Positions 60,129 through 63,100 of a DNA stretch of 64,000 bases are shown one piece after another (positions within the stretch are counted from its first letter, which is position 1; each line of letters begins with the position of its first letter). The notes beneath the pieces were generated by a model, which did not search any database, was not told the DNA's origin, and saw only the letters and a list, made by a program, of their open reading frames with translations. Source of the stretch: Camelus ferus (Eukaryota); the NCBI RefSeq assembly GCF_009834535.1, contig NC_045696.1, positions 32,986,001 through 33,050,000 on the forward strand, read 5' to 3'. Made by a program: the position numbers and the translations under genes.

Positions 60129-63100
60129 TTTAAATTAATTTAATTTTTTAGAAGTCTTTATTTTTAGAGCTCTTTTGTTTACAATAAAATGAGAGAAAAG
60201 TACAGAGATTTTCCATATCCCTCCAACATGCATAGCCTCCCTCATAATTGTCACTTACCAAAATGATACACTTTTTACCAAGGGTGAGCTTACATTGACA
60301 TATCAAAATAACCCAAAGTCTATAGTTTGTTTTGTCTTGGTGTTGTATATTCTGTGAGTTTATACAAACATATAATGACATATATTCATGACTATATTAT
60401 CATACAGACTATTTCACTATCCTAAAAATCCTTTGTGTTCTGCCAGTTCATCTCTCTCTCTCTTCATATCTGGCAACCACTGATTTTTATTGACTCATTA
60501 GTTTTGCTTTTTCCAGAATGTTATATAGTGAGAATGATACTGTATGTATAGATTGGCTTCTTTCACTTAGTACTATGCACGTAAGGTCCATCTAGGTCTT
60601 TTCATGGCTTGATTGCTCCATTTTTTTGTTTCGATCAAGTGCTGAATTGTTCCATTATCTGGATGTGCTAAAGCAACATTTTGGTTGCTTCCAAGTTTTG
60701 GCAATTATAAATAAAAATTATATAAATATCTTTGTGCAAGTTTTTATGTGGACATAAGTTTTCAACTCTTTTGGGTAAATACCAAAGAGTGTGATTGCTG
60801 GATTTTATATGTTTAGTTTTGTAAGAAACTGCCAAACTCTTCAAAAATGTCTGTACCATTTTGCATTCCCACCAGCAGTGTATGAGAGTTCTTGCTGTGT
60901 CATATTCTCACCAGGATTTGGTGTTGTCAGTGTTCTGGATTTTGGCCATTCTTATGGGTGTATAGTGGTATCTCATTATTGTTTTAATTTTCACTTCCCT
61001 GATGACATATGATGTGGAGCATCTTTTGATGGGCTTATTTTCCATCTATATATCTTTCTTAGTAAAGTTTCTGTTAAGTTTTTGACTCATTTTTCAATCA
61101 GGCTGTTTATTTTCCTATTGTTAAGTTTTAAGTGTTCTTTGTGTATTTTGGACAACAGCCATTTATCAAATGTGTTTTTTTGCAAATACTTTCTCCTAGT
61201 CATGGCTTATTTTCTAATTCTCTTGGTATTGTCTTTCACATAGCAGGGATTTTTTTAAATTTTAACAAAGTCATACTTATCAGTTATGTCTTTCATGATT
61301 GTGTCTTTGGTGTATCTAAAAAGGCATCCTCATAGCTAATGTCATCTATGTTTTCTCTTATGTTATCCCCTAGGAGTTACATATTTTTGTGTTTTATACT
61401 AAGGTCTGTGATAGAGTTTAAGTTAATTTTTGTGACAGATGTAAGATCTGTGTCTAGATTCTTTTTTTTTTTTTTTTTTGCATGTGGTTGGATGTTTAGT
61501 TGTTCCAGCATTATTTGTTCAAGAAACTACCTTTTTTTTTTTTTACCATTCCATAAAGCTGTACTTTATTGTGCAGTTGAACTGCATAATCTTTATTTTT
61601 GAATCAATATAATGTGAGTGCTGAGTAATTTTTTTCATAATCCAAAAATCTATTACGAATTCTCAACTACAAAAAAATAGTTTGAGAGTTGCTGAAAGAG
61701 TACAAACGAATTCCGCGTCTGGATCCTTCTCATCCGTCCGAGGCTGCGCTCAGGATCTTAGGCTGTATGTGAGGCTCAGGAGAAGGGTGGCGCAGCCTGG
61801 CTGCAGATCAAAGGCACCCCTCCTGGTCCATGTATCCAGCCATCCTCTGTGAAAGAGGAAGTCTCAGTTTGTCACTTGAAATACTGTGGGATTCTGTGGC
61901 TTCTGGGAAGATATTGGCTCTGTGGGTTAGGAAAGCAGGGATCAAAAAGACCCACTACTCAGAAGAAGGTCGTGAAAACAGCAAGCTCAATGGAGCTCGA
62001 CCCAGGCGGTCTTCACAGACAAAGCAGAGAGAGTCTGGTGCCGGTGGGCAAGGCCGACTGAGGCGGGCAGCTGTGGGCCCTCTGCCCTTGCCTGCGTCTT
62101 GGTGGTGAGCCCGTGACCAGCAGCACGTCAGTCCAGCATCAGAGGAGCTAAGGAAGCCCTCTGAGTTCCACTGCAGAGTTCCTCAGGCTCCCACTGCCTC
62201 TGCCGGAGATTCCCCGACGCCCACGTTCAGGACTCTGCTGGTTCCTGGGTCCAACCATCCCAGAGTGGCAGGCAGGGAGGCTCCAAGCAGTGTGAGATGC
62301 AGCCAAAAGCCTCCTGGTTTCATTTTGTTGAGCCTGAGGCGGCCGGAGCCGAGGTGAAGACCAGGTGGCCGGACTCGGCACGCTGGAGGGAGCGCCCCGT
62401 GGTGGCGGCGGCGACCCGGCCCCGCGTCCTCAGGTTGGTCTCTCCGGCTGTTGGCGGGTCCTGGGCGAGTTGAAGGCTGTCGCGGTTCCAGCTCTCTGAG
62501 CCGCCGCTGCTCCGCTGCCCCGCTGCTCCAGTGTATGTATTGTTTTTGCTCCTTTGTCAAAAGTTAGCTGACTATATTTTTATGAGTCTATTTGTGGGCT
62601 TTTTGTTCCATTGATCTATTTGTCTATTCTTTCACCAGTACCACATTGTCTTTATTACCGTAGTTTTAAAGTAGGTCTTGAAGGCAGTTAGTATCACCTC
62701 TACAGTTTGTTCTTCTCCTTCAGTATTGTGTTGGCTATTCTGGGTCTTTAGCTTCCCATATAAATTTTGGAATAAGTTTGTTGACATCCATAAAACTACT
62801 TGCTGAGATTTTGATTGATGCTGCTTTGAATATATAAACCAAATTGCGAAGAACTGACATTTTGACAATATTTAGTCTTCCTACCCATAAGCATGGAATA
62901 TCTCACTTATTTGATTCTTTTTTATTGTTTATAAAGGTTTTATAGTTTTTCTCCTGTCATCTTGTACATACTTTGTTAAATTTATACCAATATATGTTAT
63001 TTGGAAGGGATGCTAATGTAAATGACATTATGTTTTTAATTTTCATTTCCACTTGTTCACTGCTAATTTTTAAGAAAGGTGTTGACTTTTGTATATTGAC

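What the first reader, a model, noticed from the sequence alone, without database searches (positions are those of the whole stretch)
61532..62528. FSTL4 retrocopy that may fossilise an unannotated short isoform encoding a 46-aa signal-peptide micropeptide
Seen: a roughly 1-kb minus-strand insert with a GC-rich leader, an intact ATG (62323) and 42 FSTL4-like codons ending at 62198. It then switches abruptly to about 650 nt of non-FSTL4-coding sequence that adds AVGA*, and ends with AATAAA and a poly(A). Recalled knowledge: FSTL4 is a long secreted protein, and I recall its first coding exon ending at this codon. Inference: the template mRNA was FSTL4 exon 1 plus exon 2 joined to an alternative terminal exon (or intron read-through with intronic polyadenylation). 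It would encode only a signal peptide and about 24 residues. The sequence after codon 42 starts GCAGTG rather than GT, which mildly favours splicing over read-through.
Basis: partly seen in the sequence, partly recalled or inferred. Interest (0 to 1): 0.72.

Follow-up and report, generated by a model that had tools for sequence, protein, structure and literature searches.

The report
Camel retrocopy of truncated FSTL4 transcript
A 1-kb piece of DNA inside an old LINE-1 repeat matches camel FSTL4 exactly up to the end of its first coding exon and then continues into 650 letters that do not code for FSTL4; it is likely a dead reverse-transcribed copy of an early-ending FSTL4 message, a known kind of transcript fossil, and nothing found here shows that the 46-residue peptide it would encode is made or matters.

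Summary
A 999-nt minus-strand insert (62530-61532) splits an old L1 ORF2. It has a CpG-rich leader, 42 codons that are 41/42 identical to Camelus FSTL4, then AVGA-stop, 652 nt unrelated to FSTL4 protein, AATAAA and 13 A's. The switch falls exactly at the exon 2 donor: 5 of 5 read-through gene calls from other mammals leave FSTL4 after codon 42 with Val (GT). The leader is also joined at the exon 2 acceptor. So the template was very likely a spliced RNA, and read-through or a random template switch is unlikely. Where the 652 nt lie in the parent genome could not be tested: no camel genome was held and no reads were aligned. The peptide is unsupported. A stop within 4 codons is a 14% chance event, no record of such an isoform was found, and conservation is untested. 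No target-site duplication was found. Retrocopies as isoform archives, and early skipped last exons with short ORFs, are both published kinds. The scan had no note on FSTL4, but noted a comparable GOLGA7 retrocopy in this genome. Verdict: new member of a known kind, low interest.

The parts
62334..62530 (-). CpG-island-like leader, likely a copy of the non-coding first exon of FSTL4
   Evidence: GC 0.74, CpG o/e 0.87, no ATG. Read in frame it gives GLHLGSGRL before RLNKM, unlike the genomic read-through calls (ICHFLNR in P0037, ICHFLYR in P0004) and unlike the camel models' upstream MGGTSFSVF. Parent DNA not seen, so 'exon 1' is inferred.
62198..62333 (-). Copy of FSTL4 exon 2 (136 nt: 10 nt of 5' UTR plus codons 1-42)
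   Evidence: 41/42 identity to Camelus FSTL4; both ends fixed by where genomic read-through calls leave the protein
62183..62323 (-). 46-codon ORF plus TGA: 42 FSTL4 residues (one change, A20T) and AVGA
   Evidence: exact sequence not in the 15-billion-protein collection; no Pfam family
61546..62197 (-). 652 nt not coding for FSTL4; likely an alternative terminal exon (or exons); parent location unknown
   Evidence: no FSTL4, Pfam, Rfam or credible protein match; GC falls from 0.60 to 0.29 along it, CpG o/e 0.42
61565..61570 (-). AATAAA, 20 nt before the A-run; a second AATAAA lies at 61592-61597
61532..61544 (-). 13-A run, likely the poly(A) remnant, possibly merged with an A-tract of the host L1
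   Evidence: no target-site duplication found
62531..63447 (-). Host L1 ORF2, decayed, 5' side of the insert
   Evidence: Pfam RVT_1 E 2.9e-07; human L1 ORF2p residues 622-717 (E 5e-28) and 802-852 (E 1.9e-10)
60911..61531 (-). Host L1 ORF2, decayed, 3' side of the insert
   Evidence: 61036-60911 aligns to human L1 ORF2p residues 1090-1131, E 1.5e-09; collinear with the 5' side once 999 nt are removed

Best explanation
This is likely a dead processed pseudogene, made by L1 proteins in a camelid germ line from an FSTL4 RNA in which exon 2 was likely spliced to an early alternative last exon inside the FSTL4 locus. Shown: the insert splits an L1 ORF2; exon 2 is bounded on both sides by sequence that is not the flanking intron seen in other mammals; a poly(A) signal and an A-run close the insert. 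Inferred: the leader is FSTL4 exon 1; the 652 nt are a skipped terminal exon in intron 2 or a later long intron; L1 ORF2p reverse-transcribed the RNA, and the junctions were resolved without a visible target-site duplication. The parent RNA would encode the signal peptide and about 24 further residues. It is most likely an unselected early-terminating isoform, not a functional micropeptide gene. The copy postdates the camelid-specific residues L24 and V31 and looks young or unmethylated.
For: Junction: of 42 FSTL4 relatives compared, 37 full-length proteins continue after residue 42 with E (35), K (1) or G (1). The 5 short read-through calls (P0002-P0004, P0036, P0037) all continue with V, 4 of them with an immediate stop, as GT-starting intron sequence would give. 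A marmoset model inserts a cassette at the same point (P0024). The insert continues GCA GTG, at least 2 edits from any GTN+stop, while the exon itself differs from camel FSTL4 by 1 residue in 42. Upstream join. Host L1 collinear with 999 nt extra. AATAAA 20 nt before the A-run, chance about 0.05. Camelid origin: L24 and V31 in 11 of 11 camelid-type rows and 0 of 31 others. T20 is in 0 of 42 rows and fits C-G to C-A decay across codons 19-20 (inferred; parent codon not seen). Prior: skipped terminal exons use mostly 5' sites in long introns, and 469 human 5' isoforms have ORFs under 100 aa (PMC5928244, passages). The stretch 61545-62240 is held at half its 68 words or more by 18 of 24 listed runs. 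These include two runs on record as RNA from one study labelled reproductive system (X15 0.88, X16 0.81), which fits germline expression but does not prove it.
Against: The parent copy of the 652 nt was never seen: no genome was held, two exact-motif scans of metagenome contigs found 0, and no reads or contigs were aligned to the insert. No target-site duplication was found, whereas mRNA retrocopies usually carry one (PMC5470649 and PMC2912911, passages). Long A-runs are common in this L1 region. No annotated camelid isoform or gene call ends in AVGA; this absence is weak, since the copy itself, present in many DNA runs, is not in that collection either. The two RNA runs hold 780-839 million letters of contigs, so DNA or pre-mRNA could explain them, and the next RNA-type holders fall to 0.68, 0.60, 0.19 and 0.18. 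The camel intron 2 donor itself was not seen; it is inferred from other mammals.
Confidence: 0.63

Rival explanations
1. Exon 2 was spliced in cis to a cryptic acceptor in the FSTL4 last exon or 3' UTR, or to an exon beyond the gene's end, so the 3' part is the normal FSTL4 3' end or a neighbour's exon, not an intronic last exon.
For: The last 154 nt are AT-rich (GC 0.29) with two AATAAA, like a mature mRNA end. Protein searches cannot see a 3' UTR. The junction at the exon 2 donor fits this equally well.
Against: If this were the main FSTL4 3' UTR, more RNA runs should hold it; only 2 runs on record as RNA and 2 guessed as RNA hold 0.6 or more.
Confidence: 0.15
2. The 3' part comes from an unrelated RNA, joined by template switching during reverse transcription or by trans-splicing.
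For: No target-site duplication, so the insertion was not a routine one. The 3' part has CpG o/e 0.42, twice the window average, like exonic sequence of some gene. Its source is unknown.
Against: A template switch has no reason to fall on the exon 2 donor; by position alone this is about 1 to 2 chances in 136 within that exon (inference). Trans-splicing would use the donor but is rare (own knowledge).
Confidence: 0.11
3. The RNA read through the exon 2 donor into intron 2 and was polyadenylated there (composite terminal exon, semi-processed copy).
For: Composite events were 61.6% of 2675 assembled human intronic-polyadenylation isoforms (PMC5928244, passage). An unchecked note reports such a GOLGA7 retrocopy in this genome (e1-7801740). 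The camel donor was not seen.
Against: The insert continues GCAGTG. Read-through calls from primate-like, ruminant-like and rodent-like sequences all start with a Val codon (5 of 5), and 4 of 5 have GTN+stop, at least 2 edits away. GCAGTG would be a very poor GC-type donor (own knowledge of the consensus).
Confidence: 0.07
4. The insert is a DNA-level capture, a repair patch or an assembly chimera, not an L1-made retrocopy.
For: No target-site duplication; the A-run could belong to the host L1.
Against: Exon 2 is joined at both of its splice boundaries, which needs an RNA step. The copy carries a private change (T20, 0 of 42 relatives). The host L1 is collinear across the insert.
Confidence: 0.04

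Closest known systems
L1-mediated processed pseudogenes used as archives of transcript isoforms (Shemesh et al. 2006; Podlaha and Zhang 2009, as cited in Carelli et al. 2016, PMC4772013)
   Same: An intronless copy whose exon joins record an RNA form that is not in the protein records searched here.
   Different: Camelid and FSTL4; no target-site duplication; parent isoform unconfirmed. I saw the Carelli passage and reference list only; the Shemesh paper was not held.
5' intronic polyadenylation isoforms with a skipped terminal exon (Singh et al. 2018, PMC5928244; InPACT, PMC10960005)
   Same: Early donor spliced to a new last exon with its own poly(A) signal; ORF under 100 aa; described as non-coding RNA or a possible micropeptide source (passages).
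   Different: Here the isoform is inferred from a genomic copy, not from 3'-seq. FSTL4 was not found in the supplements searched, which come mainly from other tissues.
Microprotein-coding IPA isoforms (miP-5'UTR-IPA, Devaux et al. 2025, PMC12548281)
   Same: A short isoform of a long gene would encode a small protein; one such product (PRKAR1B-IPA-miP2) was detected and functional (abstract).
   Different: Those end in a 5' UTR intron and use new ORFs in the last exon. Here the ORF is the parent's own start and signal peptide plus 4 residues, with no translation evidence. FSTL4 was absent from the 1 supplementary file searched.
FSTL4 (SPIG1) of Camelus, e.g. XP_074216766.1
   Same: Residues 1-42, 41 identical.
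   Different: Lacks everything after residue 42 (Kazal, EF-hand and Ig domains by the Pfam lists).

Membership tests
L1-mediated processed pseudogene | Homology to a spliced parent gene with intron loss at an exon boundary | tested here: met
   Both ends of exon 2 are joined to sequence other than the flanking intron read-through seen in other mammals; tested at protein level, parent DNA not seen
L1-mediated processed pseudogene | 3' poly(A) remnant after a poly(A) signal | tested here: met
   AATAAA 20 nt before 13 A's; caveat: 5 other A-runs of 12 or more nearby
L1-mediated processed pseudogene | Target-site duplication (usual, but labile and not required) | tested here: not met
   longest shared word 6 nt, mostly A's; no empty site available for comparison
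L1-mediated processed pseudogene | Discrete insertion away from the parent locus | tested here: met
   Splits one L1 ORF2 with 999 nt extra; no other FSTL4 exon in the 64 kb. Unchecked notes place CCT8, CRYZL1, PHLDB2 and LAMP3 on the same piece; human FSTL4 is at 5q31.1 (PMC8391210); that these are different chromosomes in camels is recalled synteny
L1-mediated processed pseudogene | Not expressed or not under selection (pseudogene rather than retrogene) | tested here: inconclusive
   One private amino-acid change; leader keeps CpG o/e 0.87; RNA-run holders cannot be assigned to copy, parent or DNA
Skipped-terminal-exon intronic polyadenylation isoform | Upstream donor of an annotated exon is used | tested here: met
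   Switch exactly after codon 42
Skipped-terminal-exon intronic polyadenylation isoform | New exon lies in an intron of the same gene, sense strand, behind an acceptor | not testable with these tools
   No genome held; motif scans found 0; no reads aligned
Skipped-terminal-exon intronic polyadenylation isoform | Junction and 3' end supported by RNA reads | tested here: inconclusive
   X15 and X16 hold 0.88 and 0.81 of the words; junction, strand and allele not resolved
Functional micropeptide (translated, conserved small ORF) | Translation evidence (Ribo-seq, mass spectrometry) | not testable with these tools
   none available
Functional micropeptide (translated, conserved small ORF) | The isoform-specific part and stop are conserved or unlikely by chance | tested here: inconclusive
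   Stop within 4 codons in 13.75% of 20,000 shuffles; no relative with an AVGA-like end among 3 short and 31 long hits, a search of low sensitivity

The most novel reading that the evidence does not exclude
Camelid FSTL4 makes a regulated, germline-enriched short isoform that sends a 24-residue peptide into the secretory pathway, or tunes full-length FSTL4 output by early termination. Alternatively, the copy itself is transcribed in reproductive tissue from its inherited CpG-rich leader as a young micropeptide retrogene with an intact start, signal sequence and poly(A) signal.
Probability: 0.07. Interest if true: 0.6.

Novelty: new member of a known kind. Interest (0 to 1): 0.24.

Why it matters
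If the parent exon is confirmed, the copy adds one unannotated early-terminating FSTL4 isoform and shows that FSTL4 was transcribed in a camelid germ line or early embryo. It could also serve as a camelid lineage marker, and as a warning for read mapping at FSTL4 exon 2 in camels. It would matter more only if the exon proved conserved across mammals and the short peptide proved to be made; nothing here shows that.

Tried and rejected
1) The 3' part as diverged FSTL4 coding sequence: rejected. tblastn of 11 proteins against the window and of 50 against the 3' part gave only noise. An eye-catching likeness of its first 60 nt to exon 3 needs 23-36 mismatches in 54 nt, within the null (minimum 21, median 29). 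2) The 3' part as another gene's coding exon: no Pfam hit in 7 of 7 frame pieces tested. The 75-aa frame after the stop gave 2 weak hits to unrelated repetitive proteins among 1.84 billion. A 111-aa antisense frame gave none. 3) Structured or known RNA: one Rfam match at E 0.7, below threshold; the last 155 nt fold with z = -1.48. 4) N33 as a date after the Camelus-Lama split: rejected; N is also in pig, deer, whale and most other rows. 5) Intron-derived pieces of other species' FSTL4 models (marmoset cassettes, tree shrew N-terminus) do not match the 3' part. 6) Host-DNA carry-over in metagenome contigs: 0 hits with 2 motifs. 7) Runs X19 and X20 (shares 0.19, 0.18) and X21-X24 (0.00) were not used as evidence. 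8) P0040, listed in the alpaca FSTL4 cluster, is unrelated by sequence. 9) Literature: FSTL4 with intronic polyadenylation, 0 papers; FSTL4 with retrocopy, 0; FSTL4 with isoform and exon, 29 papers, 25 listed, none on this by title; FSTL4, pseudogene, camel (2 of 3 terms), 15 of 1,524 listed, none holding FSTL4. Supplements searched for FSTL4 without a hit: PMC12548281 (1 file), PMC10960005 (11 files, 1 scanned file not searched), PMC5928244 (4 files), PMC12401049 (5 small files, 11,514 characters). Larger tables not held as text may bear on this. 10) Earlier scan notes: nothing near this place, by sequence or among relatives.

Full report
What is there. The minus strand of 62530-61532 holds a GC-rich island in AT-rich DNA. 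It interrupts a decayed L1 ORF2 on the same strand. Upstream pieces match human ORF2p residues 622-717 and 802-852, and a downstream piece matches 1090-1131. Residue 802 sits at 62899 and residue 1090 at 61036, 1863 nt apart where 864 are expected. The surplus of 999 nt equals the insert, so little or no L1 was lost or duplicated, within the noise of an old element. The insert has four parts: a 197-nt leader (GC 0.74, CpG o/e 0.87, no ATG), a 136-nt block with the ATG at 62323, 652 nt of other sequence, and a 13-A run 20 nt after AATAAA. The ORF is 46 codons.

Parent and species. The first 42 residues are 41/42 identical to FSTL4 of Camelus ferus and C. bactrianus and 40/42 to alpaca. L24 and V31 occur in 11 of 11 camelid-type rows and 0 of 31 other rows, so the copy was made in the camelid lineage. 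N33 agrees with Camelus against alpaca but is also the common state in pig, deer and whale, so it does not date the copy further. T20 is private (0 of 42 rows); with codon 19 ending in C it fits ordinary CpG decay, which is inferred because the parent codon was not seen. The 23 CpGs left in the leader say the copy is young or has stayed unmethylated; I cannot tell which.

The junction is a splice site. This could be tested on protein records. All 37 full-length relatives compared continue after residue 42 with E, K or G into the canonical sequence or a cassette. Five short gene calls from unnamed contigs (primate-like, ruminant-like and rodent-like by their residues) leave the protein at exactly this point with Val, four of them stopping at once, as a GT-starting intron gives. 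A marmoset model inserts 25 residues at the same point (P0024). The upstream end behaves likewise: two of the read-through calls have ICHFL(N/Y)R before the start, camel models have MGGTSFSVFR, and the insert has [10 protein letters not shown]; all converge at the Arg codon 10-12 nt before the ATG. So the leader is neither the intron 1 end seen in other mammals nor the upstream sequence of those camel models. It is most simply the CpG-island first exon (inferred). Exon 2 is thus joined at both of its boundaries, which requires an RNA step.

What follows the junction. The 652 nt begin GCAGTG, at least two edits from GTN+stop, so read-through is unlikely unless the camel donor differs from the others. 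A template switch would not be expected to land on a donor. The sequence is not FSTL4 coding sequence and not a known protein or RNA family. Its origin is the open point. No genome is held for this window, two exact motifs found nothing in metagenome contigs, and no reads or contigs were aligned to the insert. An intronic last exon is the best guess on priors: in a human atlas, skipped terminal exons used mostly 5' sites in long introns, and 469 5' isoforms had ORFs under 100 aa (PMC5928244, passages). Splicing into the 3' UTR or beyond the gene, and a chimera with an unrelated RNA, remain open.

Sequencing runs. The stretch 61545-62240 is held by 20 of 24 listed runs, 18 with half of its 68 words or more, from 12 studies. 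DNA-type holders come from three coded organisms at 0.88-0.96, so the sequence is widespread; the search cannot separate parent from copy. Two runs on record as RNA, from one study labelled reproductive system, hold 0.88 and 0.81, and two guessed RNA runs hold 0.68 and 0.60. That fits germline expression, which a heritable retrocopy requires. But these runs carry 780-892 million letters of contigs, so DNA or pre-mRNA could explain them. X1 (152 million letters, 0.97, kind unknown) is a lead.

Insertion mechanism. The poly(A) signal at a typical distance from the A-run (chance about 0.05) and the spliced structure point to L1-driven retroposition. Against a routine event, no target-site duplication was found, while tails and duplications are the expected hallmarks (PMC5470649, passages) and mRNA retrocopies were not associated with short duplications in a human survey (PMC2912911, passages). 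Five other runs of 12-29 A's lie in the L1 sequence nearby, so the tail may be partly the host's. A blunt or slightly deleting insertion is the likely reading; an empty site in a relative would settle it.

The peptide. If the parent has the same stop, the RNA would give the FSTL4 signal peptide and about 24 residues. The hydrophobic core is modest (9-residue hydropathy up to 1.5); cleavage after residue 22 is recalled from database annotation and was not tested. Only four residues are isoform-specific. In 20,000 shuffles of the first 250 nt, a stop came within four codons in 13.75% (median 23 codons), so the short ORF needs no explanation. The exact peptide is not in the collection, and no hit among 3 short and 31 long relatives extends into AVGA. 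That absence is weak, because the copy itself was not called either. Microprotein-coding intronic-polyadenylation isoforms exist and one has a shown function (PMC12548281, abstract), so the idea is not excluded, but nothing here supports it for FSTL4.

Comparison with what is known. Retrocopies are established archives of transcript isoforms (PMC4772013, passage citing Shemesh et al. 2006; the original was not held). [quoted passage not shown] I found no paper on an FSTL4 retrocopy or on FSTL4 intronic polyadenylation and no FSTL4 row in four papers' supplements; subscription journals and unread tables may differ. Cryptic terminal exons in male germ cells are described (PMC6345566, passages). 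PMC7290577 and PMC13508297 were searched by passage and added nothing. An unchecked scan note describes a GOLGA7 retrocopy of an intronically polyadenylated RNA in this same genome, so the kind is not rare here.

Verdict. A retrocopy of an RNA spliced at the exon 2 donor: about 0.85-0.9. An intronic alternative last exon within FSTL4: about 0.63. A functional micropeptide from the parent or the copy: about 0.07. New member of a known kind; interest 0.24.

Noticed in passing
window 52255-53600, minus strand: Broken claudin processed pseudogene: lost start codon, frameshifts, AATAAA and a 12-A tail; Pfam PF00822 E 3.6e-11. The label CLDN6-like is recalled, not from a call.
   Followed up: partly
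window 37000-37500: CpG island (GC 0.59-0.68, o/e 0.75-0.84) ending in a GT donor-like site near 37467 on the plus strand; no Pfam hit for its 182-codon frame. Possibly a promoter and first exon. If its transcript spans 61-62 kb, pre-mRNA could explain the RNA-run holders.
   Followed up: partly
window 61861-61847, minus strand: A pyrimidine tract ending in CAG inside the 3' part, the only acceptor-like motif found there, with no GTRAG donor; could be an alternative acceptor of the same terminal exon, or chance.
   Followed up: no
window 61590-61568: A near-palindrome between the two AATAAA signals; the region folds no better than shuffles (z -1.48).
   Followed up: partly
window 62504-62529: Three copies of an 8-nt GC-rich unit at the insert's 5' end, which make the exact first base ambiguous.
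   Followed up: partly
PDB chain 9d2f_J: A chain named CFAP61 matches the L1 ORF2 piece at its residues 286-325 (E 4e-11), suggesting L1-derived sequence in that deposited protein sequence.
   Followed up: no
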